In this document: piece after piece, positions 2,860-36,087 of the stretch
Layout: every line of letters begins with the position of its first letter
How positions within the stretch are numbered: position 1 is the stretch's first letter
Assembly (NCBI GenBank): GCA_964459155.1
Contig: CAYWKF010000011.1
Location: 84,011-148,010, forward strand
Direction: 5' to 3'
DNA from: an uncultured Desulfobacterales bacterium
GTDB taxonomy: Bacteria; Desulfobacterota; Dissulfuribacteria; Dissulfuribacterales; JALVPX01
Length of the DNA stretch: 64,000 nt
The notes under the pieces: model-generated
What the model was told of the DNA's origin: nothing
The model's database searches: none
Seen by the model: only the letters and a program-made list of their open reading frames with translations
Made by a program: the position numbers and the translations under genes

Positions 2860-3454
2860 AAAGTCCCTCTTGCCTGTGGCCCGTTTTCTGTTCGAAGGCT
2901 CCATGCTCAAAAAGGTCTTGCGCACAGGATATCCTTTTCTTGGCAAGGGAGAGGAGTCAGTGGCAGCTCACACCTTTGGAGTGATGTTGGCTGCCTTTGC
3001 GCTGGCAAAAGAGTTTGAATCAGTAGATATGGAGCGTTTATTGCATCTGTGTCTATTCCACGATCTTACAGAGGCTCGCACAGGCGATGCCAACGCAGTG
3101 CACAAGCTCTATTTAACCATTGATGAGGAGAAGGCAGCTAGGCATATGACGCGGGAACTTGACTGGGGACAAGAGGTCTATGATCTGCTCGAAGAGTATC
3201 GTGCGGCAGAGACCGTTGAGGCCCAGATTGCCCATGACGCAGACCAGATCGACATGCTTCTTTCCCTGAAGGAGCATCTTGACACTGGAAGTGAAGACGC
3301 AGGATTATGGATTCCCTATGTCAGGGCCAGGCTTAAAACAGAGCCGGCCAAAAGGCTTGCAGAAGCCATTATGAATGAACATTGGGCAGCATGGTGGATG
3401 CGCGATCTGTTAGGAAAAGACTTCAAAAAAAATAAAAATGTAAAGGAGGAGTAA
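2849..3454 (+). CDS. HD-domain phosphohydrolase (YfbR/5'-deoxynucleotidase-like)
   Basis: ESVAAHTFGVMLAA and HLCLFHDLTEARTGD (H..HD..D pattern). The GTG at 2849 overlaps the holA stop. The ATG at 2903 is an alternative start. Confidence 0.7.
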   Translation: MENRKSLLPVARFLFEGSMLKKVLRTGYPFLGKGEESVAAHTFGVMLAAFALAKEFESVDMERLLHLCLFHDLTEARTGDANAVHKLYLTIDEEKAARHMTRELDWGQEVYDLLEEYRAAETVEAQIAHDADQIDMLLSLKEHLDTGSEDAGLWIPYVRARLKTEPAKRLAEAIMNEHWAAWWMRDLLGKDFKKNKNVKEE

Positions 3455-4599
3455 TGATAAACAAGAAAATTCTATTTTGGCTTAGCCTGTTTATTGCAGT
3501 TCCAGCCTTTGCCCTTGCCTCAGCTCAGGGTAAGGCAAAGGTCAAGATCTATTATACGGCCAACACCTATGGTTACCTGGAGGCATGCCCTTCTTGAAAG
3601 GGCAAAGTGGTGGGCGGTCTTGCCCGCCGGGTTCAATGGCTCAAGGAAAATAGGAAAAAAAAGGATGCTTCTTTGCTCCTCGATGCGGGGGATTCCCTCT
3701 TTCCTGGCGAATACGCCAGGGGGGACATCTACAAGAAAAGGGCAGACTACATGCTGGAAGTGTATGGAATGCTTGGTTACGATGCCTTTGGTATTGGCAG
3801 GCGTGACCTGCCCTTTGGTATCCAATTCCTTGAGGAGCAGTCCAAGAAGCATGGAATCGAATTTGTTTCAGCAAATCTCCTTTCCAAAGGAAAAAGGCCC
3901 TTTGCTCCTTACAAGGTTTTCAAAGTTGGAGACACCAAAGTGGCAGTCATCTCTGTGATATCTTCCAGGCCGAACAAGACGTGGGAAGCAATGTCCATTT
4001 CAGTAGTCGATCCAAGGCCATTCCTGCAGGAGACAGTGCCTGCGCTCAGGAAGGAGGCCGATCTAGTGGTGCTCCTTTCGAATCTGGGCGAAGTGGAAGA
4101 CCGCAATTTGGTGAAAGAGATTCCAGGAATAGATCTTGTGATAGGAAGTGGCCTTGGTTCGAGATTTAAATTCCCCGTAAAGGTGGCGGACAAAACATAC
4201 ATGGTAAGGCCGCAGAGTAGGGGTAAGAGTATCGGCTGGGTGGAAATTAACATTCCATTTACAGGCCAGGATGACGAGATAAAAGGTGAATTGGTATTCC
4301 TTTCAGGCGTGGTGAAAGACGATCCAGAAGTGGCTAAGAAGGTCAAGGCCCTGGAAACAGAAACCAGGAAATGGGAACGCATCCACAAGAAAAAGGTCTC
4401 TTCAAGCCCTAAGGATCGTAAAAAGGCGGCCAAAGACAACCCATTCTTGAAGGCCCTTGAAAAGGCAAGAAAACAGAGAAAGGCCTTAGACGCAAAAGGT
4501 GAAAAAGGCAGTGGTGCATCCTTTTTGGAAATCCTTAAAAAAGGCCAGACCGAACAACCTGCTGCACCCAGCAACCAAGATTCCTTAAGGCTTAAGTAA
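3454..4599 (+). CDS. Secreted calcineurin-fold (5'-nucleotidase/metallophosphoesterase-like) protein with an in-frame UGA at 3595-3597; candidate selenoprotein with a CPSU motif
   Basis: The ATG at 3454 overlaps the HD-gene TAA and encodes signal peptide MINKKILFWLSLFIAVPAFALASAQG. Next come KIYYTANTYGYLEACPS-UGA-KGKVVGGLARR..LLLDAGDS in one frame. The family's motif I lies upstream of the UGA, and its GG.ar and DaGD motifs lie downstream. Confidence 0.6.
3595..3645 (+). promoter_or_regulatory. UGA codon plus downstream SECIS-like hairpin
   Basis: GGCGG (3613-3617) pairs with CCGCC (3624-3628) around loop UCUUGC (GGUCUU context), starting 15 nt after the UGA. An outer CUUGA (3593-3597) / UCAAG (3641-3645) pairing is possible. 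Confidence 0.4.
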
Positions 4600-5827: not shown

Positions 5828-6423
5828 AGAGGATTCAGGATCATTTTTCCAAAAAGGCCAAGGCTGAGGGATATCCCGCCCGTTCAGTCTACAAGCTCCA
5901 GGAGGCCCAGAAAAAATACAAATTTCTCAAAAAGGGCCACAAGGTCCTGGACCTTGGAGCTTCACCAGGCTCATGGTCAAAGTATGCTGCATCAATCGTA
6001 GGCAAAAATGGCAGGGTGATTGCTGTTGATCTCAATCCCCTGGCGCATGACTATCCCAATGTCACACAGATAAAGGCAGATATATATAAGTTTCCAGTGG
6101 AAGAGCTGAAGAAAATTTCGGAATGTTACGATGTCGTTTTAAGTGATATGGCTCCGAAGACCAGTGGACGCAAGGATGTCGATCATCTGCGTTCCATAAG
6201 TCTGGCAGAAAGGGCCTTGGAAATAGCTGTGGATCTGCTTTGTCCAGGCGGTGTCTTTTTCTGCAAAGTCTTTCAGGGCGGCAGCTTCGATGAATTTAGA
6301 AATATGTGCCGCTCCCGCTTCAAAAGTGTGAAGATCTTTAAACCAAAAAGCTCGCGTTCCCAAAGCGTGGAGATCTTTCTCTTTTGTTCAGGGCTTAAAA
6401 GGGATGGCAATGTTGAACAATAG
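5797..6423 (+). CDS. rlmE: 23S rRNA (uridine-2'-O)-methyltransferase RlmE/FtsJ
   Basis: RSVYKLQEAQKKYKFLKKGHKVLDLGASPGSWSKYA and VVLSDMAPKTSG motifs. The TTG at 5821 is an alternative start. Confidence 0.85.
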   Translation: MPFCRGVQLVKRIQDHFSKKAKAEGYPARSVYKLQEAQKKYKFLKKGHKVLDLGASPGSWSKYAASIVGKNGRVIAVDLNPLAHDYPNVTQIKADIYKFPVEELKKISECYDVVLSDMAPKTSGRKDVDHLRSISLAERALEIAVDLLCPGGVFFCKVFQGGSFDEFRNMCRSRFKSVKIFKPKSSRSQSVEIFLFCSGLKRDGNVEQ

Positions 6424-13875: not shown

Positions 13876-14508
13876 TCATGGCCCTTGTTCAGCGTTTTGG
13901 GTAGGGCCTTGGGCCATGCTGCTATTTTCTATCTCTTCCCAGCCAGTGAGCATGCCCTTCAAGTGAGACAAAGGTGTCTTGCCTGTTGTGGTCAGATAGC
14001 TGTGCAGGATCAGGAAGGCAAGCATCAAAAAAGCACCAGCACTATGCAAAATGGCAACACTGCCAAAGGAGATGCCGAGTGATTGGTTGTAATAGTAGAG
14101 TAGTCCCGTAACGAATAGCAAAGGAAATATGAATATCTTGAGAAAGAGATAGGCAAGCCTCTGTAGGGCATTTAACTTTTTTTCAGGATGTTTTTCATGG
14201 GGGTGGCATTCACCCTTGAATATGCCGCACGCATAGTAATAGCAGATTTCGGCCATCTTTTCCCTGATGGGCAGATAGTGTCTCCATTCACCAGTGGTAA
14301 AATGCCAAAAAATGGCAAAGGCAGTCAGGCCGAGCAGCGTCCAGGCGGAAATGTCATGCCATTTTACCGCCCTTTCAAATCCTAATAACGTATATGAGCC
14401 ATGAATCTCAAAGCCGGTAAGGAGAAGCACCAAAATCAAAATGGCTTGAAACCAGTGCCAAAATCTTTCAAAACGGCTGTATAAATAAACTTTTTCGGCC
14501 ATGATCAT
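13876..14508 (-). CDS. Membrane di-heme cytochrome b (Ni/Fe-hydrogenase / FdnI / PhsC-type b subunit)
   Basis: YSRFERFWHWFQAILILVLLLTGFEIHG opening, four predicted TM helices with conserved His. It starts 10 nt downstream of the cytochrome c gene. Confidence 0.8.
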   Translation of the reverse strand: MIMAEKVYLYSRFERFWHWFQAILILVLLLTGFEIHGSYTLLGFERAVKWHDISAWTLLGLTAFAIFWHFTTGEWRHYLPIREKMAEICYYYACGIFKGECHPHEKHPEKKLNALQRLAYLFLKIFIFPLLFVTGLLYYYNQSLGISFGSVAILHSAGAFLMLAFLILHSYLTTTGKTPLSHLKGMLTGWEEIENSSMAQGPTQNAEQGP

Positions 14509-14517
14509 TCCTCCGTC

Positions 14518-16089
14518 CTATTTTTTTCTGGCAAGAACAATCCTCAAGAGCCCGTGACCGATGACTAACAGCAGTGTTAATCCGCACAGCAGCCACCCGG
14601 CCTTGTCCACAAGATTGGAAAGATCTCTACCAGGGATGTAGACCCCTTTTACTGCTGCCAACCTGCCAGCCTGACGCCTGTGGCATTCTTGGCAATCGAG
14701 ACTCTTTTCCTTGGGGGGGATCATGTGGGAAAGTGGCAAATAATAGAGTGTTTCTACAAATTCGAGCTTGCCGCTGAAAGGCACTCCTGCTTCTTTCATC
14801 CCAGCCTCGGCTGCTTTGAGCCAGTCATATTCTGCCCAAAATGCACCGGAACCCTTTTTGCCAAAAAGTTTGGGAATAACCATTGTTTTGTTCTCAGGGT
14901 CATACGGCTGTTTGCCAAGATGGACCTTGAAAGGGTAAATCTTGGACTTCGGGTCCCCGGGTTCACCAAGTGGCTTGTTGAGCCAGATCCTGTTGTTCTG
15001 GGGCTCTTTTTTGTCTGTGACCACGGTGTGTTGCATGGTCCCGTTGAACCAGAAATATTCTGGAACAACGTCCTTATCCCATGCCATGGTGCCCTTTTTG
15101 GTATGGTAAGCTGGTTTGCCAAATTTGTCCTTTTTCACAATCGGTTTGTGATCCGGCCCAAATTCGCCTGCAGTTGACCAATCCCAAAAGATGTTGGTGG
15201 GCATGGAACGGGCATAGTAGGGAACATGGCAGCTTTGACATGCCACCTTGTCTGTGTGGTGGTTCAATTTTTCTTTTTTGTGTGGATTGAGACCATGACA
15301 TGATGCACATCTGATTCTGTGCCCGTCATCCTTTGGAAGTGCCAGCTGCTCCTTGCCCTCAGGCGGATTCCTATATTTGCGTCCATCAATCTCATGCTCA
15401 ATAGCAGTGTGGCAAGTGGAACAAGAAAAATTCAGTCCTTTGGCATCCATATGCACATCCAAATTTTTCTCTGGATTCGACAGGGTGCTGTCCAGATCAC
15501 CCCTCTTGACTCCATCTCCGCCACCGCTGTAAAAGTGGCACTTGCCGCAGCTTGCCCTGCTGGTCGGACCAACATTTTGTGCCACCATTTGTAAGTTGAC
15601 AGGTTCAAAGACCTTCTTACCAGCAAAAACTTTTCTTTCATAAGGCGGGTAGCCACAGGCAGTTGGAAATTTTTTGTACTTGCCTGTTGTGTCATGGCAA
15701 ATAAGGCAATCTATCTTTTCAGCATTGTTGAAATCAAAGGAATGGTCTTTCCAGCCGTAACCTGCATGGCAGCTGGTGCACCTGCACCAGTTCGAGGTCA
15801 CGGCCACTCAGAAGTTGTTGATTACATGCCTTTTCCCCAGCTTTCGGCCTTCAAAGTCTGATTCCCACGTCCAGTGGATGGTTTTTTGAAATTGTTCAGC
15901 AGCCTTGTTGTGGCACTTGAGGCACGCCTTGGTTACCTCTTCAGCGGTCTTGAAATCCTTCTTCAGCTCCTCAAATTTTCCATGGTCAGCAGTGGATGCG
16001 TCGGATCGGGTGGTTGTGCTTGGCTTGGAAAAGACGGCAGAAGGTAACAGGAGAGACAAAAATAAGACTAAAGGCAAGGTGGTTTTCAT
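14518..16089 (-). CDS. Octaheme c-type cytochrome (tetrathionate-reductase/Otr-like family) with an in-frame UGA at 15808-15810 and a C-terminal TM anchor; candidate selenoprotein
   Basis: The 93-aa ORF (signal peptide MKTTLPLVLFLSLLLPSAVFS plus heme 1 CLKCH) and the 429-aa ORF (CTSCH, CLICH, CGKCH, CSTCH, CASCH, CQSCH, CQECH) are contiguous in one frame. They are separated only by TGA: ..GKRHVINNF-U-VAVTSNWCRCTSCHAGYGW. This gives 8 CxxCH motifs in total. Confidence 0.65.
15773..15810 (-). promoter_or_regulatory. UGA codon plus downstream SECIS-like hairpin
   Basis: The minus strand reads UGA, then 17 nt, then CUGGUGC-AGGU-GCACCAG (7 bp stem, GGU-containing apical loop). Confidence 0.5.
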
Positions 16090-17024: not shown

Positions 17025-19676
17025 CTATTCCTGCTCCACCCTTGCTCTCTTTTTTTCCTTTTCTTTTAGGTACTCGATAAGTTTTTTCAGTTCGTAATCG
17101 CCTTCGTAGAATGCATCTGCAACGAGATAGGGTGTCTCATCGTTGATCATGGCTGCATCAATGAGCCTTGTAAAACCAAGAAGCCTGCCCACTATCACGA
17201 GCTTATCTTCGATAACCTCTGCAGGGGCATATTCGAAAACTGCATTTACCAAATCGGCTTTGACATCTGTGAAAAAATCTGCGCGCTCAAGGATCTCGCC
17301 TATGGCCAACGCCCTTCTGTGCCGCTGTTTCAAGGAGGTGCCACCGCCTTTGAAGCGGAACTTTACATAATTTTCCCTGGGATCAAGGCTGCATACCGAA
17401 TCCACCATTGTAAAATGAAAATCCATGCGGGCGTTCAAGTTGAAATAGTCTCTGGCCAATATGATATAATTGGGCAAGCCAAGGGGCCGTTGGGAACGGG
17501 CATCAGACATCCATCTCCCCACTACCGAGCCCATGTCTCCAATGACCGGCGGTGGTCCTGCCCATCGCAGGCCTGGCGTCGATATACCTTTCCAAAGGGC
17601 CTTAAAAGGCCTGCAAGTGATTTCATCTGGTGTCACAGATCTCTTTTTCTTACGATGGGGCGTCAGCCCTCCACCAACATCGATTATATGTAAAAAGAAG
17701 GGGATGTCGCTTTCCAGCTTGTATACCACCCCTGAAGTTTCCTCCAATAGTTCATCTCCTGCTTCAAAAAAGGCAATTACAGCCTTTTCATGCACGTATC
17801 GTACGATGTCATGGAGGGAACGGCATTCCATGATAGAAAACGTTGGGCCGTAGGCATCAGTAAGGTTCAATTTTATGGTCAACTCCTTGACCTGGTCTAA
17901 GATGGTATTGGTGGGTTGTTCAGCAGGTGGAGAGGTTTCTTTTTCCGCTGTTTTCTGTTTCTCATAATCTTGTATGGCGCTATTTATCTCTTCTTCATCT
18001 GCCAAATAGACCTTGCCTCGTTCACCGTCAATGGTGATCCACTGGCCATCTTCAAGGCGTGCCATGGCATCAACCAAACCTACCAGCATCGGCCTGCCAT
18101 ATTCTCTGGCAACGCAGGACAAATGGTCTGCCGGATTGCCAAAATCTACCAGCAAGCCATTTACGTTTCTTATAACCTTGGCAGCATCAACCAAGCTTCG
18201 GTGCATAACGATTATGACGGGTTCCTTAGGAATTTCCTCGAGATCCTGCCGCCTTTTTATTTTTTTTACCTTGCCTGTAACTATACCCTTGGATGTAATC
18301 AAACCTTGATGAAAGATCGGTTTTCGGTGATCGATCTTTATGGTTTTAGTGCCCGAGTGCGCTTCCATGATGAGCGGCCTTGACTGAAGTATCCAGACTT
18401 CTCCCTGGGGATCCATGGCCCATTCTATATCTTGGGGAGAGTCGAGTACTTTTTCCAACTCCAGGCCAATGGAAACAAGCTTCTGGACCTCTTCGTCAGA
18501 GAGCACCCTGGCATCTTGTCGTTCTGGCGGAATGTCTTCTTCCATGACCCCGCCTTTGGGATTTAATGTAAGCTGTTTCGTCTTTTTGGAGACGATCGGT
18601 GGCTCAATGTACAAATCTCCGCCTAATGTCCTGTATGGCTTATAGATATCTGCCATCGATGCTCCAGAAACAACCAGCTCACCCATGCCGAAAACAGCGC
18701 TGATAAGCATGGTCTGTTCTTCGTTGTCATTTGGATCAACAGTGAAGATGACCCCGGCTTTTTGAGCGTTGATCATTTCAAGGCACAAAACTGCCATGTT
18801 GAAATCGAGGGGTTTCATGCCAGCGCCCATGCGGTAGGCCAGACTCCGTGAATTGAAGTTACTGGCTATCACCTCTTTCACGGCATTTTTCAATTCCTCA
18901 AAAGAGATGACATTCAGTACAGATGTGAATTGGCCTGCAAAAGAGTGGTGCTTGCTGTCCTCACTTAGGGCACTGCTTCTGACCGCTAGCCCCTTGCCTT
19001 GGTCAAAAAATTTTGAAGCCATGTGCATCAGTGTGTTTTCAAGGGCTTCAGGGAGTTGGGCGTTTAAGACCTCGTTTCTGATTTCTTCTTCTGCTTCCTT
19101 GGTCAGCGATTTACCTTGGAACAAAAAGGGCTGTAGCTTTTTTAAGATTTTGAATGAAAGGCCACTTTCCTCCAAAAAGAAACGGCAGCCATGTGTGAGT
19201 ATTGAGAAACCGTCTGGCACATGTATTCTTTCCAGTGAACGCAGGCGTGCCAAATTGCTGGCCTTTCCCCCGGCCAACGTCGCATAATCTGGCAGAATGT
19301 CATCCAAAGATATGCAGAAAGGGATGTCTTTGTGGGTGGGGATGTTTTTCAGAAGTTCATTTATTTTTTTGCTTATATTTTGGTGAATGTTGAAAAGCTT
19401 AGTATGTTTGTCATAGTCCAATTGGTTCAACTTTTCTATCAGGTCTCCTGTTACTTCAATGAGTTCATGAATTTTATTTTGAAGTCCTGGACCGAAAAAT
19501 TGTGCTTCCCTCAACTTTAGATCAATGTCTGTTATGAGTTCGACGGCCTTGGTGTTTTCATACAAAAGGGAACGGAAGATCTGGTATCTCCATTTCAATT
19601 CTTCCAAGTGTTCCCGGGCCTTTTGTTCTCTTAAGCTCTGAACTTTATGGATTTGATTCTTCAGCCATTTGAGCAT
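17025..19676 (-). CDS. PEP-synthase-like dikinase paralogue 3 (PPDK_N ATP-grasp plus phospho-His swivel domain plus uncharacterised C-terminal domain)
   Basis: LAGGKASNLARL, LAVRSSALSEDSKHHSFAGQF, PQDIEWAM..WILQSRPL; His domain VDFGNPADHLSCVAREYGRPMLVG. The C-terminal ~300 aa is shared with the other two paralogues. The ATG at 19676 has AGGTGA 4 nt upstream, overlapping the upstream stop. The ORF is open to 19709. Confidence 0.75.
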   Translation of the reverse strand: MLKWLKNQIHKVQSLREQKAREHLEELKWRYQIFRSLLYENTKAVELITDIDLKLREAQFFGPGLQNKIHELIEVTGDLIEKLNQLDYDKHTKLFNIHQNISKKINELLKNIPTHKDIPFCISLDDILPDYATLAGGKASNLARLRSLERIHVPDGFSILTHGCRFFLEESGLSFKILKKLQPFLFQGKSLTKEAEEEIRNEVLNAQLPEALENTLMHMASKFFDQGKGLAVRSSALSEDSKHHSFAGQFTSVLNVISFEELKNAVKEVIASNFNSRSLAYRMGAGMKPLDFNMAVLCLEMINAQKAGVIFTVDPNDNEEQTMLISAVFGMGELVVSGASMADIYKPYRTLGGDLYIEPPIVSKKTKQLTLNPKGGVMEEDIPPERQDARVLSDEEVQKLVSIGLELEKVLDSPQDIEWAMDPQGEVWILQSRPLIMEAHSGTKTIKIDHRKPIFHQGLITSKGIVTGKVKKIKRRQDLEEIPKEPVIIVMHRSLVDAAKVIRNVNGLLVDFGNPADHLSCVAREYGRPMLVGLVDAMARLEDGQWITIDGERGKVYLADEEEINSAIQDYEKQKTAEKETSPPAEQPTNTILDQVKELTIKLNLTDAYGPTFSIMECRSLHDIVRYVHEKAVIAFFEAGDELLEETSGVVYKLESDIPFFLHIIDVGGGLTPHRKKKRSVTPDEITCRPFKALWKGISTPGLRWAGPPPVIGDMGSVVGRWMSDARSQRPLGLPNYIILARDYFNLNARMDFHFTMVDSVCSLDPRENYVKFRFKGGGTSLKQRHRRALAIGEILERADFFTDVKADLVNAVFEYAPAEVIEDKLVIVGRLLGFTRLIDAAMINDETPYLVADAFYEGDYELKKLIEYLKEKEKKRARVEQE

Positions 19677-19684
19677 CACGTCAC

Positions 19685-22198
19685 CTAAAGCTTGCAAGAT
19701 GAGCCACAAAGATCGACAAACTTGTGGAAAAAACGTTCAACAGCATGTTCATCAGCCATCCTGACATCCAGCTGCCGTGTAAAGGCTATGAGCTCACCTA
19801 TATGTTGAAGTGTTTTGGTGATCTCATACTCTTCTACTCCCTTCAGTTTGCCGATCACTATGTCTTTTTTAGTTTCTGATTTGAATCCAAGGCTTTCGAG
19901 TATCCATTTCAAGAGTTCTGCCCTTTTGCGTCTTTTGGATTCCTCTGCGAACCCACCTGCAAAACGGAAATAAATGTAGTTGTTGTCTGGTTCAGGGCAT
20001 ACATAGGAGTCAATCACGTTAAAGTGATATCCCAGCAAAAGGCTGAGATTCATATAGTCAGTGGCTACAATGGCTAGATTCTGTCCCGAATACTCGGGGG
20101 GGTTTGTCAGCATGCTTACCGGCCTTACCATGCTGGAAAACAGGTCCCCTAACCCGAAGGGTGCTGGTTCAGTGTCCCATGCCTCCTTTCTCAGAAGACC
20201 AGTCAAGAGCGCCTTGAACGGTACGCTCGTTATTTGATCGGGAGTAACACTCCTTGAGTTCTCATCCGCCATTACCCCTGAACCAATGTCTATGATGTTG
20301 ATTTTGATTGGTATAGGCGCCTGAAGCTCCATTACCCGCTCGTCGCCGAATGACCGTACCGATGTGAATTGGTCTATCAGCGACTCCACAGCTTTTACGT
20401 GACTAAAGTGTATGATGTCATGGATCGTTTTGCATTTTTCTGGAACAAAGTCCTTGGACGTTGGGTCTACCAAATAGAGAGGAGCTACATAACTTAAAAT
20501 ACGTCTCAAGATTTTTATCTCGGGTTCTTCCAAATATTCCCAGTCGCGTCTTGCCTCCACTTCCACAAGCTCTTCTATGATACCTTCATACACTCTCTTT
20601 TCATCTGCATCCACAGTAACGTCCATTCCTTCTTTGAGCAGTTTGGTTGCCTTGCCAGTGCCGAAAATGGCAGGCACCCTGTATTCTCTGGCAATAGTTG
20701 CCAAGTGGCCTGTGGAGCTTCCAACATCAGTTATGATCGCTGCTGCCTTTTTAAGTACTCTGCTCAGCTTTGGATGCGCATATCTTGAAACAACAACGGA
20801 ACCCACTGGAACTTTATCCGGATCTTCGTCTGGACTGACATGGACGACCCTGCCCGACGCAATACCCAGTTGGGCAGTTTGACCCACACCTTCCATAAGG
20901 ATTGGAAATTTTTTTAGGATTTCTTCAATGTCAGCACCGACAGGTTCAGGCACCGCCTGGATGCCAAGACGCCTGTTTTGAAGTATCACAAGCTCATCTT
21001 TTTCATTGATCGCCCACTCCAGATCCCTGGGATTTCCAAAGGCCTTTTCGCACAACATGGCTGATTCAGCAATTTTTCTTATGGTCTTGAGGTCAAGGAG
21101 CGACGAGCCCCGCCGCATATGGGTGGTCACCATTTCCAGCGGCTCTTTGCCAGGGGGCAACTTGCATTTTGGAGGCTTATCAGTAATGAGGCTGGAAACC
21201 AGAGTAAATGGATAGGCGCGTTTTACCACATATTGATCGCCAGTGTGGTGTCCAGCTACCAACTTTTCCCCCAGTCCTTCCACAGCCGAGATGACTAGGC
21301 AATCTCTGCTCTTGCCAAGGGGATCTCTCGTATAAGTCACTCCAGATATGTGGGCATTGATCATTTCCTGAACTCCCACAGCTACGGGAGTGGCTAGGAG
21401 GTTGCTTGTGTCTCCGATATAATCTTTCACCTCAGGCATAAATCTCGCCATGATGACCTTTTTGTACGCATCGAAGATCAATTCAGGCTGTACATTCAAT
21501 AAAGTGTGAAACTGGCCTGCAAAACTCCGTTCCGTGTCTTCACCCACAGCGCTGCTTCTAACAGCAAGCAACGTTCGTTTGCCCAAACGCCTGAAGAGGC
21601 TGTCAAGCTCTTGATTTACAGCCTCCTTCAACCTATCGGGTATCGAAGATTCCAAAAATAAGGCTTCTATTTCTTTTTTGGTGTCTTCTGTAGCACCCTT
21701 TTGGGAATACAGTTTTTCAATTCTGGGGATGATGTTGTTCTGCTCCAGGAAAAGGATATAGGCCTGCTTGGTTATTGCGAAACCATCTGGCACCCTGATC
21801 TGAAAATTGTTGAATATGTCTGCAAGGCTGGCGTTTTTGGAACCTACTATATCATCTAGGTCTCTGTTGATTTCTTGATAGGCCAGGGTAAGGCGTTCAC
21901 CGTATGGTCCAGCCCCTCCGGAAACGAGATCTTCGAGGTTAAACCTGATTGCCTCTAAAATATCGTATAGTATCAAATACTTGCCCTGTGAAAGAGCGTT
22001 GAGGTCGTAGATGACCTCCCGGGTGGTTTCACAAACGTTCGTCACAAAGCTTGCAATGAAGGCCCGGTCAAAGAGATAATTTCCTCCCAAAACCTTTTCC
22101 GCATGGGCAATTTCTTCCAGAACTTTGTTGTTGAGTTCAAGAATGTTTCTGAAATATTGGAAAACCCTTTTCAGGGGGCGTGGACTTTTTTTTCTCAT
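19685..22198 (-). CDS. PEP-synthase-like dikinase paralogue 2
   Basis: IVGSKNASLADI, LAVRSSAVGEDTERSFAGQF, PRDLEWAI..LVILQNRRL; His domain ITDVGSSTGHLATIAREYRVPAIFG. The C-terminal domain carries IIDIGSGV, VTPDQITSVPFKAL and NYIYFRFAGG. Confidence 0.75.
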   Translation of the reverse strand: MRKKSPRPLKRVFQYFRNILELNNKVLEEIAHAEKVLGGNYLFDRAFIASFVTNVCETTREVIYDLNALSQGKYLILYDILEAIRFNLEDLVSGGAGPYGERLTLAYQEINRDLDDIVGSKNASLADIFNNFQIRVPDGFAITKQAYILFLEQNNIIPRIEKLYSQKGATEDTKKEIEALFLESSIPDRLKEAVNQELDSLFRRLGKRTLLAVRSSAVGEDTERSFAGQFHTLLNVQPELIFDAYKKVIMARFMPEVKDYIGDTSNLLATPVAVGVQEMINAHISGVTYTRDPLGKSRDCLVISAVEGLGEKLVAGHHTGDQYVVKRAYPFTLVSSLITDKPPKCKLPPGKEPLEMVTTHMRRGSSLLDLKTIRKIAESAMLCEKAFGNPRDLEWAINEKDELVILQNRRLGIQAVPEPVGADIEEILKKFPILMEGVGQTAQLGIASGRVVHVSPDEDPDKVPVGSVVVSRYAHPKLSRVLKKAAAIITDVGSSTGHLATIAREYRVPAIFGTGKATKLLKEGMDVTVDADEKRVYEGIIEELVEVEARRDWEYLEEPEIKILRRILSYVAPLYLVDPTSKDFVPEKCKTIHDIIHFSHVKAVESLIDQFTSVRSFGDERVMELQAPIPIKINIIDIGSGVMADENSRSVTPDQITSVPFKALLTGLLRKEAWDTEPAPFGLGDLFSSMVRPVSMLTNPPEYSGQNLAIVATDYMNLSLLLGYHFNVIDSYVCPEPDNNYIYFRFAGGFAEESKRRKRAELLKWILESLGFKSETKKDIVIGKLKGVEEYEITKTLQHIGELIAFTRQLDVRMADEHAVERFFHKFVDLCGSSCKL

Positions 22199-22356
22199 GG
22201 CCTATGTTCCAAGATATACACTGTTTTTAAACGATTCTCTTTTTCAAACGACTCTCTGCCCATAACTACGTGAGATCCATGGTCACTTGAAAATCTCATG
22301 CATGCATCATGAGTATAACAGAATTTTTCCGGTACGTTTCGAACTTCTTCCCAAAC

Positions 22357-23154
22357 CTATTTTTTACACAAAAGCACCGAGGCTTGAGTTTGAGCCAGTG
22401 TCTCATAGATAAGAGGCATTCGCGGCGAAAAAGAGCTGGCCACAAACGCATAGTTCATAAGAAAGTCGCTCATTGCCTCTGGAGTGCCCAATACATTGTG
22501 AATGTTTGAAATTTTCAAGCCATGCCGGGTAAAGATTTGCTCACCCGTTTCAATAGATGGTTCACTCTGGGTAGAATCTAAGAATTCAAGGTTGTCCACA
22601 TCCTTGAAGTTGTAATAGATGAGGTCGATATCCATCTCAGAGTCTTTTAAAAGTTTACCAAGTGTATGGGCTATGGCGTCTGGCTCAGTACCGTCACCAA
22701 TTAGGATACCAATTGTCCTGGATACAGACAAATTTTTAACATAAAGGATGGAACACGGGCATTTTTCATACAGTTCCGAAGATACAACCTCGGTTAAATT
22801 TTCTGTTTTGGAGATGGGCAAGTGTCCTTCAATAAAAAGGTCATAGTTGCCTTCTCGCAATTCCCGTAATATTTCATTTTCCCTATTTCCTATCCTAATT
22901 TTTGGAGGGCCGCTGAAACCGAATTTGACCTTTTCAGTCTTTAATAGACGAGAAATTGTTGCCTCGCCATCCCTAAGCATCTTTTCTATGGATGCTTGTT
23001 CATCCATATTGCTGCGCGTTAGTTTTTTGCCGTCTGAATAGACTACATGAAGAATAAAGGTATTCAATTCCAAAAAAGAGCTTAGGTAATCTACATATCT
23101 CAAAGCAATACTTGATGCTAAGTTTTCATCCAGGTAGAGTAGCACTTTTGCCAT
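22357..23154 (-). CDS. Tandem universal-stress-protein-like (adenine nucleotide alpha-hydrolase fold) protein
   Basis: Two halves each open with a beta-strand-like KVLLYLDEN.. / TIGILIGDGTEPD.. followed by helical segments. The assignment rests on pattern only; no ATP-binding G-2x-G-9x-G-S/T motif was seen. Confidence 0.35.
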   Translation of the reverse strand: MAKVLLYLDENLASSIALRYVDYLSSFLELNTFILHVVYSDGKKLTRSNMDEQASIEKMLRDGEATISRLLKTEKVKFGFSGPPKIRIGNRENEILRELREGNYDLFIEGHLPISKTENLTEVVSSELYEKCPCSILYVKNLSVSRTIGILIGDGTEPDAIAHTLGKLLKDSEMDIDLIYYNFKDVDNLEFLDSTQSEPSIETGEQIFTRHGLKISNIHNVLGTPEAMSDFLMNYAFVASSFSPRMPLIYETLAQTQASVLLCKK

Positions 23155-23173
23155 TGGATATACTCCTGTTGAA

Positions 23174-23569
23174 CTATTCAGGCGCCTTTTTTCTTTTTAT
23201 GCGTTCTTCAGCTTTTTTTACAATTTCGATGATTTCACTCAGCTTAAACGGCTTTGCCAAAAAGTCGAAAACCCCTTTTTTAAATGATTCTTTGGCGGTT
23301 TCCATGGTAGCGAATCCAGTGATTACAATGACCTCTGTCTCCGGCCAAAGATTTTTGACCTTCTCGAGGAACTCCATGCCAGAGATGCCCTCCATCTTCA
23401 GGTCTGTGATTACTATGTCGAACTTTTGTTCGCGTACCCTTTCCAGGGCCTGGCTGCTCTTGGTGAAGCTCTCTACCTGATAACCTTTTTTTTCAAGGGC
23501 GGGCTGGAGGCGTTTGGCAACTATAGGTTCATCATCTAATATCAATATGGAAATATTTTTTTCACTCAT
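23174..23569 (-). CDS. Stand-alone response-regulator receiver (CheY-like)
   Basis: ILILDDEP, phospho-acceptor context DIVITDLKMEGISGMEFL, VIVITGFAT, and K in LAKPF. The start overlaps the upstream dikinase stop by 8 nt. Confidence 0.9.
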   Translation of the reverse strand: MSEKNISILILDDEPIVAKRLQPALEKKGYQVESFTKSSQALERVREQKFDIVITDLKMEGISGMEFLEKVKNLWPETEVIVITGFATMETAKESFKKGVFDFLAKPFKLSEIIEIVKKAEERIKRKKAPE

Positions 23570-26123
23570 TTTTCATCTCCATCAGCTCATATATTTTGTC
23601 TTTGAAATCATTGATGCGTGTGTCGTTTATCATCATAACATCAAGTTGCCTGGTGAAGCCTATGAGAATGCCTATCAGATACAACCTTTTTTCCATCTCT
23701 GGCCGATTCAATCTTTTTATGCGCGCCACAACCAAGTCTCCCCTGGTTTCGACCATGAAGTCGTAGTAGGCCAACACTTCTTCAATTAGTTTGGCTCGAC
23801 GACTGCGGCGTTCCGCCTCTGTAACCCCGCCAAAGAATCTGAAATAAATATAATTTTCCCTTATTTTTTCAGATAGATAGCTGTCAACTATGGTGAAATG
23901 GTAGCCAAGCCTGAGACTCAGGTTCACATAGTGGCTGCTGATGACGGCCAAGTTTTGCCCCAGGCTTTTTGGGTCCATGTGTTCTGCTGAAAAGGTGCGT
24001 GTGAGACTTGCCATGAAGCTTGATGCATCAATTGAAACAGGTGAGCTGTCCCAGGCTCCAGGGCATTTCAGGCCTCTTATTAAGGCTTTTAAGGGGATCG
24101 ATCTTATCAATTCAGGTGTGACCGTTGCAGAATCAGGAGGGGTAGGTTCCTCAAGGCCTCCGCCTATGTCGATGATTACAAGGTCCAGTGGAATATCCCA
24201 CTTCAACCGTTTTACTGATGCATCTTTTGTGCTTATGCCAGCGAAATGGAGGTTTACCAGGGCCTCAACGGCTTTTTCATGAACAAAGCGAGTGATGTCA
24301 TGAAAGGTTTCGCAGTTTTCCGGCTTGAAGTGTGTGTCCGTTGGATCCACCAGGGTAAGGGGTTCTATCTTCCTCAAGATTCGCCTTAGAAGGCGGTACT
24401 CATAGCTCTCGGTTATCTTTTCCTGTTCAAGATTGAAGAAGAAAAGCTCTTTTACTTCGCCCTGATAGATTTTCCTGTCAGCCGCATCAAGTGTAACAAG
24501 CCCTTTGTCTTGGAGTATCGATATCGCTCCAGACACGTTGAAAAGAGCAGGCAGAGCGTATTCCCTGCAGATGGTGGCGAGATGTCCGGTAACTGCGCCT
24601 ATCTCGGTAACCAGGCCTGAAACTTTGGACATGAGTGGTGCCAACCTTGGTGAGGCATACTTGGTCACCACAATCGCACCCTTTGGAACTTTGTCCAAAT
24701 CATCACCAGGGCCCAACACATGTACTTCGCCTATTCCAACCCCTTCTTGAACAGTTACCCCTCTGTCTTCAATCAAGACCTTATGTTTTTTGCCCAATTC
24801 AGACAATCCTTTTGGATAGAGGCCTGCCCTATATTTTATTCTCAGGGGTCGGGTCTGTAGGATTACGATTCCGCCGTCGGCAATGGCAAATTCAATGTCT
24901 TGGGGTTTCTTGAAATATCTTTCGATGTCCAGCGCGCACTGTGCCAATTGTTTGATCTGGCCCAGACTGAGGCTGGGCTTATCCTTCAATTCTTCGTCGA
25001 CTTCTACTATGTCTAATCTTTTCTGGTCAACCAATTGTCTCTTCTTGTCCTTCCAGGAAATTTGGATAGAGCTTATTTTTTGGGTTTTTCGATCGACATA
25101 AAAGGTGTCCCCTGTGGTACGCCCAGACACTATCAGGCCGCCAATTCCCCAGTTTGAGCTGATGATCATGGTGTCACTGACTGGGTCAGAAGGATTCAGA
25201 CTGTAAATTACACCGCTCACTTTAGAATTTATCAGCTCTTGACAGCCTGCAGCCATTAGTATCTCATCCTCTTTGAAGCCTATTTTTCTTCTGTATTCCA
25301 AGGCACTTGGATTAAAAGTACTGGCTATTACACGTTTATATGCATCAGATATGCCATGTTCATTTACCCCAATTACACTTTCATAGAGACCGGCAAAGGA
25401 GTGTTCGCTGTCTTCTCCATAAGCACTGCTCCTGACTGCCATTAGCGGGTTGGGGCCAATTTGTTTTTTCAATTTGGCCGTTGCATCTTTTATGTCATGT
25501 TTCAAATCAGAAGGGATGTCTGCCTTTAGTATTTCATCTTGAATCATTTGGGCTGCATCTTTAATGGTGAGATCGTTGCTGTCCAACGTCTCGAGTATCC
25601 TGTTTATTTTTTCGTGAAGGTCATTTCTTTGAAGAAAACGCTGGTACGCATAAAACGTAACCGCAAAGCCCCTGGGAATCTGAATACCCAGATTTGACTT
25701 CAATTGGCAAAGGAAGGCATTCTTTCCTCCCACGGAGTCTTCATCCCACTTTTTTATTTCATCATAGAACAAGATATTCTTTGCAACGCCTATATACCGG
25801 CCTTCCAAAATACTTATGATGTCCGACTCAATTTTCTGGTAAGCTTCAATAAGTCCTTCATATTTGCCAGGAACCATTTCATTCAATGTAAAAATCAGTT
25901 TTTGTACGTTGGTGGAAAGTTTATCCACGAAGTCTTCAATGAAGTGTTTGTCAAAAACAAAGTCTCCGCCAAGGATTTGATTTGCTGCCGCTATTTGATC
26001 CAGTATGGTGCTGTTGAGTTGGAGAATTTCCCGGAAAAGCTTGAACAGTTCTTTGAAGGAGCGACCCTTGGCCGAGCCGCTCCAACGTGAAAGGCCTTTT
26101 AATATGTCCTTGATTGTGAACAT
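23562..26123 (-). CDS. PEP-synthase-like dikinase paralogue 1
   Basis: SVGGKNAFLCQL, MAVRSSAYGEDSEHSFAGLY, PQDIEFAI..IVILQTRPL; His domain VTEIGAVTGHLATICREYALPALFN. The C-terminal domain carries IIDIGGGL, VTPELIRSIPLKAL and NYIYFRFFGG. Confidence 0.75.
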   Translation of the reverse strand: MFTIKDILKGLSRWSGSAKGRSFKELFKLFREILQLNSTILDQIAAANQILGGDFVFDKHFIEDFVDKLSTNVQKLIFTLNEMVPGKYEGLIEAYQKIESDIISILEGRYIGVAKNILFYDEIKKWDEDSVGGKNAFLCQLKSNLGIQIPRGFAVTFYAYQRFLQRNDLHEKINRILETLDSNDLTIKDAAQMIQDEILKADIPSDLKHDIKDATAKLKKQIGPNPLMAVRSSAYGEDSEHSFAGLYESVIGVNEHGISDAYKRVIASTFNPSALEYRRKIGFKEDEILMAAGCQELINSKVSGVIYSLNPSDPVSDTMIISSNWGIGGLIVSGRTTGDTFYVDRKTQKISSIQISWKDKKRQLVDQKRLDIVEVDEELKDKPSLSLGQIKQLAQCALDIERYFKKPQDIEFAIADGGIVILQTRPLRIKYRAGLYPKGLSELGKKHKVLIEDRGVTVQEGVGIGEVHVLGPGDDLDKVPKGAIVVTKYASPRLAPLMSKVSGLVTEIGAVTGHLATICREYALPALFNVSGAISILQDKGLVTLDAADRKIYQGEVKELFFFNLEQEKITESYEYRLLRRILRKIEPLTLVDPTDTHFKPENCETFHDITRFVHEKAVEALVNLHFAGISTKDASVKRLKWDIPLDLVIIDIGGGLEEPTPPDSATVTPELIRSIPLKALIRGLKCPGAWDSSPVSIDASSFMASLTRTFSAEHMDPKSLGQNLAVISSHYVNLSLRLGYHFTIVDSYLSEKIRENYIYFRFFGGVTEAERRSRRAKLIEEVLAYYDFMVETRGDLVVARIKRLNRPEMEKRLYLIGILIGFTRQLDVMMINDTRINDFKDKIYELMEMKNE

Positions 26124-31354: not shown

Positions 31355-31709
31355 TGGTGGAGGCGGCGGGAATCGAACCCGCGTCCGGAAGCATTCCACT
31401 CAAGCTTCTACGTGCGTAGCCTGGATTCCTTTTTTCACCCGACACCATCCATCCAGGCGGGATGGTGACGAGCTAGCTTGCAACTGTTTCACCCTTGAAG
31501 GGGCAAGCACCCTTCAAGCGGCTAGCCTGCTAGGTCGACGCCCAGGTCCCAGCGTGCAGGCCCGCTGGGTTGGACGCTGGCTGATTATGCAGCCAGTGCG
31601 TACTCGTATTCAGAGTCGGCGTTTGTGTTTTTGTCTGCCTTTTTACGAGGTGGCAGTCCTCGGCACGCCACTTGAGCTTCCATACCCCCGTCGAAGCCAG
31701 GTCGCCCCC
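31355..31709 (-). ncRNA. ssrA: tmRNA (transfer-messenger RNA)
   Basis: The minus strand starts GGGGGCGACCUGGCUUCGACGGGGG..GCCGAGG..CCUCGUAAAAAG and ends GGACGCGGGUUCGAUUCCCGCCGCCUCCACCA. The tag frame ends ..GCC GAC UCU GAA UAC GAG UAC GCA CUG GCU GCA UAA. By analogy with the E. coli layout the probable tag is ADSEYEYALAA, with resume codon GCC at 31618-31620. Confidence 0.95.
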
Positions 31710-36070: not shown

Positions 36071-36087
36071 ATTTGAATCTGCACGAA

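What the first reader, a model, noticed from the sequence alone, without database searches (positions are those of the whole stretch)
14518..16089. Octaheme cytochrome c that is complete only if an in-frame UGA is decoded: candidate selenocysteine next to the Otr-type active site
Seen directly: the 93-aa ORF carries the only signal peptide and the first CxxCH. The 429-aa ORF carries seven more CxxCH motifs and a C-terminal TM helix. The two are contiguous in the same frame, separated by one TGA (15808-15810): ..LGKRHVINNF-UGA-VAVTSNWCRCTSCHAGYGW.

A c-type cytochrome must be exported to be matured, so the downstream ORF alone (GTG start, no signal peptide) makes little sense.

17 nt after the UGA there is a 7-bp perfect hairpin CUGGUGC-AGGU-GCACCAG with a GGU-containing loop. 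This is the position and style expected of a bacterial SECIS.

Inference: the UGA encodes Sec. From memory only, Shewanella octaheme tetrathionate reductase has a Lys distal ligand to the catalytic heme and a Cys about 8 residues downstream in the active-site pocket. Here a Lys sits exactly 8 residues before the UGA (K-RHVINNF-U). That spacing would put a selenol at the catalytic heme. I am not aware of a described selenocysteine multiheme cytochrome.
Basis: partly seen in the sequence, partly recalled or inferred. Interest (0 to 1): 0.85.

Follow-up and report, generated by a model that had tools for sequence, protein, structure and literature searches.

The report
Selenocysteine octaheme cytochrome c (Otr family)
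This is a real gene for a membrane-anchored eight-heme respiratory enzyme whose conserved catalytic-site cysteine is replaced by selenocysteine (an in-frame UGA plus an RNA hairpin); this selenoprotein type is already listed in databases but has never been studied.

Summary
Minus-strand 16089..14518 is one 523-codon frame, broken only by TGA at 15810..15808. Only the joined product has a signal peptide, eight CxxCH motifs and a full-length match to the Otr family.

The UGA aligns exactly with Cys64 of Shewanella Otr. That cysteine is present in all 102 full-length homologues and in 61 genomic loci (TGC/TGT). Seventeen other genomes carry TGA at this codon, with the frame open across it.

All TGA loci have a SECIS-like hairpin that fits the published bacterial consensus. 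There are two unrelated hairpin types, in two separate clades. In the window's clade the loop codon AGG (Arg103) occurs in 14/14 TGA loci and 0/63 Cys loci.

TGA is a normal stop for neighbouring genes. A second Cys/Sec-pair gene (UshA-like, 3454..4599) lies in the same window. selA, selB, selD and tRNA-Sec were not found in the roughly 84 kb visible.

The Sec reading is therefore strongly supported. The novelty claim is not. A 2026 review lists a GenBank-annotated Sec form of TIGR04315, and a Sec multiheme cytochrome (MccSep/ExtKL) has been characterised. This is a new member of a catalogued but unstudied selenoprotein kind.

The parts
14518..16089 (-). Full selenoprotein gene: Otr/OhcA-type octaheme cytochrome c, 523 codons including UGA94, stop TAG
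   Evidence: Single frame. TIGR04315 592.7 bits, profile 1-440/440 spanning the TGA. 1SP3 E = 1.7e-122.
16027..16089 (-). Signal peptide (residues 1-21, MKTTLPLVLFLSLLLPSAVFS), preceded by RBS GGAGG
   Evidence: Read directly from the sequence. No predictor was run.
15832..15834 (-). Lys86 codon, equivalent of Otr Lys56 (axial ligand of the catalytic heme 2)
   Evidence: Alignment to 1SP3. Otr numbering from PMC3769277. The GK motif is present in every full-length homologue printed.
15808..15810 (-). In-frame UGA = Sec94, equivalent of Otr Cys64
   Evidence: Cys in 102/102 full-length homologues. TGC/TGT in 61 loci and TGA in 17 other loci at the same codon.
15773..15790 (-). SECIS core hairpin CUGGUGC-AGGU-GCACCAG. 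It encodes N100-W-C-R-C-T-S106. Its 3' arm is the first Cys of the heme-2 CxxCH motif.
   Evidence: Invariant apart from two G-C to G-U changes in 14 TGA loci of this clade. Loop codon AGG is 14/14 in TGA loci against 0/63 in Cys loci. Fits the bSECIS consensus in PMC13188914. Resembles the E. coli minimal SECIS ggttgcaggtctgcacc (PMC3834832).
15766..15780 (-). Heme-2 (catalytic heme) binding motif C104TSCH108
   Evidence: Aligned to C74xxC77H78 of Otr.
14533..14601 (-). C-terminal hydrophobic helix (residues 497-519), putative membrane anchor. The 1SP3 alignment ends at residue 472, before this segment.
   Evidence: Sequence. 1SP3 alignment range.
13876..14508 (-). Co-transcribed cytochrome b subunit (PhsC-like / Ni_hydr_CYTB), the likely quinol-oxidising partner
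   Evidence: PF01292 E = 6.5e-24; NF011582 112 bits, below its cutoff. A homologue lies directly downstream of otr in 80 of 82 related loci.

Best explanation
The locus is a two-gene operon, otr(Sec)-cytB. The first gene encodes a selenocysteine-containing member of the Otr (OhcA-like) family of octaheme c-type cytochromes.

Proposed mechanism:
1. Translation starts at ATG 16089.
2. At UGA94, the hairpin 17 nt downstream (loop AGGU) recruits SelB with Sec-tRNA(Sec). Sec is inserted and translation continues to TAG at 14518.
3. The signal peptide directs export. Eight hemes are attached in the periplasm. The protein stays tethered by its C-terminal helix next to a PhsC-like cytochrome b, which feeds it electrons from the quinol pool.
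4. Catalysis occurs at the Lys86-ligated heme 2. Sec94 replaces the family's invariant catalytic-site Cys (Otr Cys64).
5. I infer that the selenolate acts as a stronger nucleophile and leaving group towards S-S or other chalcogen bonds (tetrathionate, polysulfide, perhaps selenite). The heme chain then reduces the adduct.

Shown here: the single frame, family membership, the Cys/Sec pair, SECIS conservation and the conserved cytochrome b partner.
Inferred: actual Sec insertion, membrane topology, the electron donor, the substrate and the chemical role of Sec.
For: 1. Only the joined ORF gives a signal peptide plus eight CxxCH motifs, and a complete TIGR04315 match across the TGA.
2. The UGA aligns with Cys64 of 1SP3.
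3. That Cys is present in 102/102 full-length homologues. The 17 truncated database proteins all begin 1-3 residues after it.
4. In GTDB genomes the codon is TGA in 17 further loci and TGC/TGT in 61. The frame is open, with conserved GKxxxxNNF upstream of every TGA.
5. Every TGA locus has a stem of at least 7 bp (18/18), against 9/61 Cys loci. Mean MFE is -20.6 against -15.4 kcal/mol.
6. There are two non-homologous hairpins. CUGGUGC-AGGU-GCACCAG lies 17 nt after the UGA in 14 loci. GCAACGA-GGC-UCGUUGC lies 13 nt after the UGA in four Desulfohalobiaceae loci. They fall in two separate clades of an NJ tree. Both satisfy the bSECIS rules: loop 3-9 nt, G in the first two loop positions, UGA-to-loop distance 16-37 nt (PMC13188914).
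7. Codon-level selection is visible. Arg103 is AGG in 14/14 against 0/61. From the codon tallies, I derived that Ser106 is AGY in 14/14 against 38/61 and Thr105 is ACC/ACU in 14/14.
8. Two Cys-type genes nested in the Sec clade keep the stem but have lost the GG loop (CGCU, AGAU), i.e. fossil SECIS elements.
9. The start codon of the '429-aa ORF' is not conserved: codon 95 is GTG, ATT, ATC or ATA.
10. TGA terminates neighbouring genes, so there is no code reassignment.
11. A second Cys/Sec-pair gene with its own SECIS-like hairpin lies in the same window.
12. Sec forms of this family are annotated in GenBank (PMC13188914). A Sec multiheme cytochrome has been shown to work this way (PMC13510729).
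Against: - No selA, selB, selD or tRNA-Sec was found in the window or within 10 kb either side. The rest of the metagenome-assembled genome could not be searched.
- No Rfam family matches the hairpin. The Rfam scan returned only chance-level hits to unrelated families, so this test is uninformative about a SECIS.
- Most of the stem is forced by the amino acids W-C...C-T. The RNA evidence therefore rests on the loop and the outer pairs, and the 14 loci are phylogenetically related rather than independent.
- There is no protein-level evidence.
- The physiological substrate of even Shewanella Otr is disputed (PMC12949373).
- The distance from Cys64 to the heme-2 iron could not be measured here.
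Confidence: 0.88

Rival explanations
1. The TGA is a true stop. The locus is a decaying or genuinely split gene: a 93-aa monoheme fragment plus a 429-aa heptaheme protein translated separately from GTG 15807.
For: Gene callers split it this way everywhere. RefSeq WP_197460471.1 is annotated as a 438-aa protein. No Sec machinery was seen in about 84 kb.
Against: - The downstream part has no signal peptide and no RBS, so it could not be exported or receive heme.
- Its 'start' codon is not conserved (GTG, ATT, ATC or ATA).
- The same codon is TGA in 18 independent assemblies. Both halves remain under purifying selection, and a conserved hairpin is present.
- A nonsense mutation would not recur precisely at an invariant Cys codon in two clades.
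Confidence: 0.04
2. The UGA is read through, but not as Sec. A near-cognate Trp or Cys tRNA, or a low level of leaky termination, yields a Cys/Trp-94 enzyme.
For: UGA is the leakiest stop codon. Cys at this site is the family norm.
Against: - Leaky read-through needs no hairpin, yet all 18 TGA loci keep one that matches the SelB-type consensus, with a selected GG loop.
- The loop decays once the codon reverts to TGC.
- The same contig has a second Cys/Sec-pair gene.
- The lineages involved are among the most selenoprotein-rich bacteria (PMC13188914).
Confidence: 0.04
3. Sequencing or assembly error in a metagenome contig; the true codon is TGC.
For: The source is a metagenome assembly (ENA ERZ27262694, k141_48242).
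Against: An identical truncated product is also on record on a 26,671-bp contig sourced from NCBI/Logan (P0159). Relatives at 57-80% identity from other projects show the same truncation. Seventeen named genomes have TGA here, together with covarying SECIS features.
Confidence: 0.01

Closest known systems
Shewanella oneidensis octaheme tetrathionate reductase Otr (SO_4144, PDB 1SP3; NCBIfam TIGR04315)
   Same: About 50% identical over 430 residues (E = 1.7e-122). Eight CxxCH motifs, the Lys56 equivalent (K86), the heme-2 motif and the catalytic-site Cys64 position are all aligned.
   Different: Sec replaces Cys64. The window protein has a C-terminal hydrophobic helix beyond the 1SP3 alignment (which ends at residue 472) and an adjacent cytochrome b gene, whereas PMC12949373 describes Shewanella Otr as soluble.
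GenBank/RefSeq-annotated Sec form of TIGR04315 (example WP_331457571.1), listed in Table 1 of PMC13188914
   Same: Same family, with one Sec. This is the kind to which the window gene belongs.
   Different: The review gives no Sec motif, position, SECIS or function, and cites only 'GenBank annotated'. I could not retrieve that sequence to confirm that its Sec is at the same column. Other orthologues are still annotated as truncated, e.g. WP_197460471.1.
MccSep / ExtKL (GSU2937-2936; NF040886), the Geobacter pentaheme selenoprotein polysulfide reductase (PMC13510729)
   Same: A periplasmic multiheme cytochrome c made by reading through a UGA between two called ORFs. It has Sec/Cys-type homologues and SECIS-like hairpins. 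Sec lies next to the catalytic heme and acts as a nucleophile on S-S/Se substrates.
   Different: It is an unrelated family: there was no NF040886 hit. It has five hemes, and its catalytic heme is His/Cys-ligated, with Sec (U325) far away in the sequence. Here the catalytic heme is Lys-ligated and Sec lies between the Lys ligand and the heme motif.
Ohc complex (OhcBAC) of Desulfovibrio (PMC4641369, PMC6491731)
   Same: An octaheme OhcA plus a heme-b membrane subunit OhcC. A homologue at 49% identity (P0118) is named 'OhcA-like' by its depositor.
   Different: No OhcB (Fe-S) gene lies next to the window pair. Nothing in the held literature mentions Sec in OhcA.
E. coli fdhF-type minimal SECIS (5'-GGUUGCAGGUCUGCACC-3', PMC3834832)
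   Same: The window hairpin CUGGUGCAGGUGCACCAG shares the GCAGGU...GCACC core and the G-G-U loop.
   Different: No bulged U; a 4-nt loop; and 17 nt of spacing from the UGA. From memory, the spacing in E. coli is 11 nt. SelB binding was not tested.

Membership tests
Otr / TIGR04315 octaheme c-type cytochrome | Full-length HMM match above the curated cutoff | tested here: met
   592.7 bits against a cutoff of 375, profile 1-440/440, residues 34-484 spanning the UGA.
Otr / TIGR04315 octaheme c-type cytochrome | Eight CxxCH heme-binding motifs in one exported polypeptide | tested here: met
   Motifs at residues 56, 104, 128, 181, 223, 261, 284 and 466. Met only if the UGA is read through.
Otr / TIGR04315 octaheme c-type cytochrome | Conserved Lys ligand of heme 2 (Otr Lys56) | tested here: met
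   K86 aligns with the Lys56 position. The GK motif is present in all full-length homologues printed.
Otr / TIGR04315 octaheme c-type cytochrome | Conserved catalytic-site cysteine (Otr Cys64) | tested here: met
   The position is occupied by UGA (Sec, the Se analogue of Cys). Cys is found in 102/102 homologues and 61/61 Cys-type loci. The catalytic-site Cys is mentioned in 10.1101/2023.04.20.537704.
Otr / TIGR04315 octaheme c-type cytochrome | Tetrathionate, nitrite or hydroxylamine reductase activity | not testable with these tools
   Needs enzymology. Even for Shewanella Otr the physiological role is disputed (PMC12949373).
Bacterial selenoprotein gene | In-frame UGA aligned with Cys in homologues (Cys/Sec pair) | tested here: met
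Bacterial selenoprotein gene | UGA-containing orthologues in other organisms | tested here: met
   17 further genomes in two clades.
Bacterial selenoprotein gene | [quoted passage not shown] | tested here: met
   Window: 7-bp stem, loop AGGU, 24 nt from the UGA to the loop. Second clade: 7-bp stem, loop GGC, 20 nt. Rules from PMC13188914. Loop codon AGG 14/14 against 0/63.
Bacterial selenoprotein gene | selA, selB, selC (tRNA-Sec) and selD in the genome | tested here: inconclusive
   None found in the 64-kb window or within 10 kb on either side. Indirect support comes from a second Cys/Sec-pair gene at 3454..4599.
Bacterial selenoprotein gene | Selenium in the protein | not testable with these tools
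   Needs 75Se labelling, ICP-MS or peptide mass spectrometry.
Ohc complex (OhcBAC) | OhcA octaheme + OhcB Fe-S protein + OhcC cytochrome b encoded together | tested here: not met
   OhcA-like and cytochrome b genes are adjacent. No Fe-S protein gene lies in the operon: the neighbours are a metallophosphatase and an ABC transporter. It resembles a two-subunit version.
MccSep / ExtKL (NF040886) | Sequence membership in the ExtKL family | tested here: not met
   No NF040886 hit at E <= 0.01. It is a functional analogue only.

The most novel reading that the evidence does not exclude
Sec was acquired at least twice independently at exactly the Otr Cys64 position, each time with a newly built SECIS. 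This would mark that residue as the catalytic nucleophile of the whole Otr/OhcA family. It would also imply that the long-disputed physiological reaction is reductive cleavage of chalcogen-chalcogen bonds (tetrathionate, polysulfide, selenium species) at a Lys-ligated heme, not nitrite reduction. That would be a second, mechanistically distinct heme-selenium catalytic centre beside MccSep.
Probability: 0.35. Interest if true: 0.6.

Novelty: new member of a known kind. Interest (0 to 1): 0.4.

Why it matters
- Annotation: gene callers and parts of RefSeq split or truncate these genes. They therefore under-count a respiratory enzyme that is widespread in sulfur-cycling Thermodesulfobacteriota (as named by depositors in the locus titles).
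- Mechanism: natural Sec substitution is a classic pointer to a redox-active catalytic Cys. Here it falls on the one conserved non-heme Cys beside the Lys-ligated heme of Otr, an enzyme whose physiological substrate is still argued over. This gives a concrete, testable hypothesis: compare U94, U94C and U94S kinetics on tetrathionate or polysulfide against nitrite.
- SECIS evolution: the hairpin is built out of the codons of the heme-binding motif itself. The W-C residues at 101-102 appear to be imposed by the RNA rather than by the protein. This is a clear example of how a coding-region SECIS reshapes a protein sequence.

Tried and rejected
- Rfam scan of 15600..15900 at E <= 10 gave only chance hits and no SECIS family.
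- A search for the structural role of Cys64 failed. Mowat et al. 2004 is not held. 'Cys64' and 'OhcA' searches returned unrelated papers, and one four-term search returned nothing. Only Lys56 and C74xxC77H78 and an unnumbered 'cysteine residue' of the catalytic site could be cited. I did not run structure prediction, because the tools return no coordinates and the Sec-to-heme distance could not have been measured.
- Sec machinery: ARAGORN found only a tmRNA. Pfam tables for the window and 10 kb either side show no SelA, SelB or SelD domains. One look-up failed because my ORF start differed from the called gene.
- The listing of cluster members rejects 'U', so I could not test whether the full-length Sec protein is on record.
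- Rejected idea: Cys102 (NWC) as a resolving Cys for a selenenylsulfide. The second Sec clade has Ala there. The W-C codons are the 5' arm of the hairpin. Cys-type revertants keep W-C. An RNA-driven origin is therefore more likely, though a clade-specific chemical role is not excluded.
- Rejected idea: UGA reassignment (genetic code 4 or 25). TGA terminates at least four neighbouring genes.
- Other in-frame-TGA ORF pairs in the window were not examined individually, apart from 3595..3597. From their coordinates they look like adjacent genes or antisense artefacts.
Full report
**1. Observation**

On the minus strand, 16089..14518 is a single reading frame of 523 sense codons. It is interrupted once, by TGA at 15810..15808, and ends at TAG. 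A GGAGG ribosome-binding site lies 8 nt before the ATG.

Residues 1-21 (MKTTLPLVLFLSLLLPSAVFS) look like a signal peptide. The first CxxCH (C56LKCH) precedes the TGA. Seven more follow it, at residues 104, 128, 181, 223, 261, 284 and 466. A hydrophobic helix covers residues 497-519.

Seventeen nucleotides after the TGA lies the perfect hairpin CUGGUGC-AGGU-GCACCAG (15790..15773). The 76-nt region folds at -32 kcal/mol, z = -2.5.

**2. What the protein is**

The joined sequence, with Cys in place of the stop, matches NCBIfam TIGR04315. This is the tetrathionate reductase family of octaheme c-type cytochromes. The score is 592.7 bits against a cutoff of 375, and the match covers the whole profile (1-440/440) across the TGA.

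It also aligns with the only solved relative, Shewanella Otr (PDB 1SP3), at E = 1.7e-122. In that alignment GKKNSINNFCVAISSNEPRCTSCHAGYGW is opposite GKRHVINNF[UGA]VAVTSNWCRCTSCHAGYGW.

PMC3769277 states that heme II of Otr is bound by C74xxC77H78 and Lys56. By simple counting this gives:
- K86 = Lys56
- U94 = Cys64
- C104 = Cys74

[quoted passage not shown] In my 120-sequence alignment the only conserved Cys outside the CxxCH motifs is the one at position 94. The UGA therefore sits on the catalytic-site cysteine. The exact geometry could not be measured with these tools.

**3. Cys/Sec pair and orthologues**

Of the 120 best database homologues, 102 are full length, and all 102 have Cys at column 94. 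Seventeen are 'truncated' proteins of 427-438 aa. These include all 12 of the closest homologues shown in that region, and they begin one to three residues after that column. This is the footprint of gene callers stopping at a Sec codon.

A scan of one genome per GTDB species returned 80 loci. At the aligned codon, 17 have TGA, 44 have TGC and 17 have TGT. In every TGA locus the frame is open upstream, with the conserved GKxxxxNNF motif.

The TGA loci include a cultured isolate, Thermodesulfatator autotrophicus S606. Its RefSeq protein WP_197460471.1 is annotated as the truncated 438-aa piece.

The codon after the TGA varies (GTG, ATT, ATC, ATA). There is therefore no conserved restart codon for a separate downstream gene.

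**4. SECIS evidence**

All 18 TGA loci, counting the window, have a stem of at least 7 bp just downstream. Only 9 of 61 Cys loci have such a stem anywhere in the same 57 nt. Mean MFE is -20.6 against -15.4 kcal/mol.

There are two different hairpins:

| Clade | Loci | Hairpin | nt after UGA |
|---|---|---|---|
| Thermodesulfobacteriota-type (includes the window) | 14 | CUGGUGC-AGGU-GCACCAG | 17 |
| Desulfohalobiaceae | 4 | GCAACGA-GGC-UCGUUGC | 13 |

In the first clade the only two changes are C-to-U transitions that keep G-U pairs.

[quoted passage not shown] The window values are 7 bp, loop AGGU and 24 nt.

The core of the window hairpin also resembles the E. coli minimal SelB-binding SECIS, ggttgcaggtctgcacc (PMC3834832).

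Part of the stem is forced by the amino acids. W101-C102 pair with the codons of C104-T105. The free positions nevertheless show RNA-level selection (Ser106 and Thr105 clade splits derived by me from the tallies):

| Codon | TGA loci of this clade | Cys loci |
|---|---|---|
| Arg103 = AGG (forms the GG of the loop) | 14/14 | 0/61 (CGN 56, AGA 3) |
| Ser106 = AGY | 14/14 | 38/61 |
| Thr105 = ACC/ACU | 14/14 | not counted |

Source.

Two Cys-type genes (L085, L086) nest inside the Sec clade. They keep the W-C stem but have loops CGCU and AGAU. Once the codon became TGC, the loop decayed.

In an NJ tree the two Sec groups are separate. The Desulfohalobiaceae group is embedded among Cys-type Desulfovibrionales-like sequences. 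This implies at least two gains and one or two losses. Caveats: this is an NJ tree only, and the loci within a clade are not independent.

**5. Is the organism Sec-competent?**

I found no tRNA-Sec; ARAGORN reported only a tmRNA. No SelA, SelB or SelD domains appear in the window or within 10 kb on either side. The rest of the 176-kb contig and of the MAG is out of reach, so this criterion is open.

Two indirect points favour competence. First, TGA is an ordinary stop for at least four neighbouring genes, which excludes code reassignment.

Second, the window holds another candidate selenoprotein on the plus strand at 3454..4599:
- It has an in-frame TGA at 3595..3597 in the motif E-A-C-P-S-U.
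- A 9-bp hairpin follows, with loop GUCU starting 19 nt after the UGA.
- It hits two NCBIfam 'UshA-like (seleno)protein' models across the TGA, both below their cutoffs.
- Distant homologues have CxxC with Cys at the UGA column, and the three closest homologues are truncated just after it.

The lineages carrying the Sec form belong to the groups the review describes as the richest in selenoproteins.

**6. Context and mechanism**

The next gene (14508..13876, same strand) is a PhsC-like/Ni_hydr_CYTB cytochrome b. A homologue lies directly downstream of otr in 80 of 82 related loci, both Sec and Cys types. [quoted passage not shown]

Together with the C-terminal helix, this suggests a membrane-bound quinol:Otr module. 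It is related to the Ohc complex of Desulfovibrio but lacks the Fe-S subunit OhcB.

The proposed sequence of events is SelB-dependent Sec insertion, export, heme attachment, and electron input from quinol via cytochrome b. Catalysis would follow at the Lys-ligated heme 2, with the Sec94 selenolate as the nucleophile.

The last step is an inference. It is drawn by analogy with MccSep, where Sec next to the catalytic heme attacks polysulfide or selenite (PMC13510729). The substrate is unknown. Otr enzymes reduce tetrathionate, nitrite and hydroxylamine in vitro. Deletion studies in Shewanella show no role in tetrathionate respiration and hint at sulfite instead.

**7. Comparison with what is known, and novelty**

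Two items contradict this.
- MccSep/ExtKL of Geobacter was predicted in 2007. It is now characterised structurally and genetically as a Sec-dependent pentaheme polysulfide reductase (PMC13510729).
[quoted passage not shown] Its only source is 'GenBank annotated' (PMC13188914).

The kind is therefore catalogued, but without a motif, SECIS, position or function. In the held literature I found no paper that analyses it.

The window gene is a new, unannotated member of that kind. This analysis adds:
- the mapping of Sec to Cys64 beside Lys56;
- the two independent SECIS solutions;
- the codon signature;
- the fossil SECIS in revertants;
- the conserved cytochrome b partner;
- the observation that RefSeq still truncates some orthologues.

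**8. Verdict**

Novelty is modest. Interest is 0.4: a solid, biologically meaningful selenoprotein that offers a handle on the mechanism of Otr, but not a new category.

Noticed in passing
window 3454..4599 (+), TGA at 3595..3597: Second candidate selenoprotein: a signal-peptide-bearing UshA/metallophosphatase-like protein with motif EACPS-U-KGK. A 9-bp hairpin (loop GUCU) starts 19 nt after the UGA. It hits the NCBIfam UshA-like (seleno)protein families NF041198 and NF049981 below their cutoffs. Distant homologues have CxxC with Cys at the UGA column, and the three closest homologues are truncated gene calls. It may be a third subfamily of UshA-like selenoproteins.
   Followed up: partly
L003 (Thermodesulfatator autotrophicus S606, NZ_LSFI01000001.1), TGA at locus position 6190: RefSeq WP_197460471.1 (438 aa) is only the post-UGA part of a Sec-type Otr orthologue. 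RefSeq annotation of this selenoprotein family is therefore inconsistent.
   Followed up: partly
L085 (3304) and L086 (3403): Cys-type (TGC) Otr genes nested within the Sec clade. They retain the NWC-encoded stem, but the loop has changed from AGGU to CGCU or AGAU. These are apparent fossil SECIS elements after Sec-to-Cys reversion.
   Followed up: yes
window 15781..15786 (codons W101-C102): The W-C dipeptide before the heme-2 motif occurs in all 14 TGA loci of this clade, where most Cys-type proteins have E-P, W-P or Y-A. Its codons form the 5' arm of the SECIS. The extra Cys therefore looks imposed by the RNA structure rather than by protein chemistry.
   Followed up: partly
window 17025..26123 (-): Three tandem large paralogues with PPDK_N + PEP-utilizer domains (883-894, 837 and 853 aa). 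A response-regulator gene and a 265-aa ORF with no recorded Pfam hit lie between them. This is an unusual cluster immediately upstream of the otr region.
   Followed up: no
window 36073..41337 (+): A very long (about 1750 aa) UvrA-like ORF with duplicated UvrA/ABC domains.
   Followed up: no
window 31355..31709 (-): tmRNA gene with tag peptide ADSEYEYALAA. It is the only RNA gene ARAGORN found in the window.
   Followed up: no
L069 (6274 and 9640): One Anaerolineae contig carries two Cys-type Otr paralogues about 3.4 kb apart.
   Followed up: no
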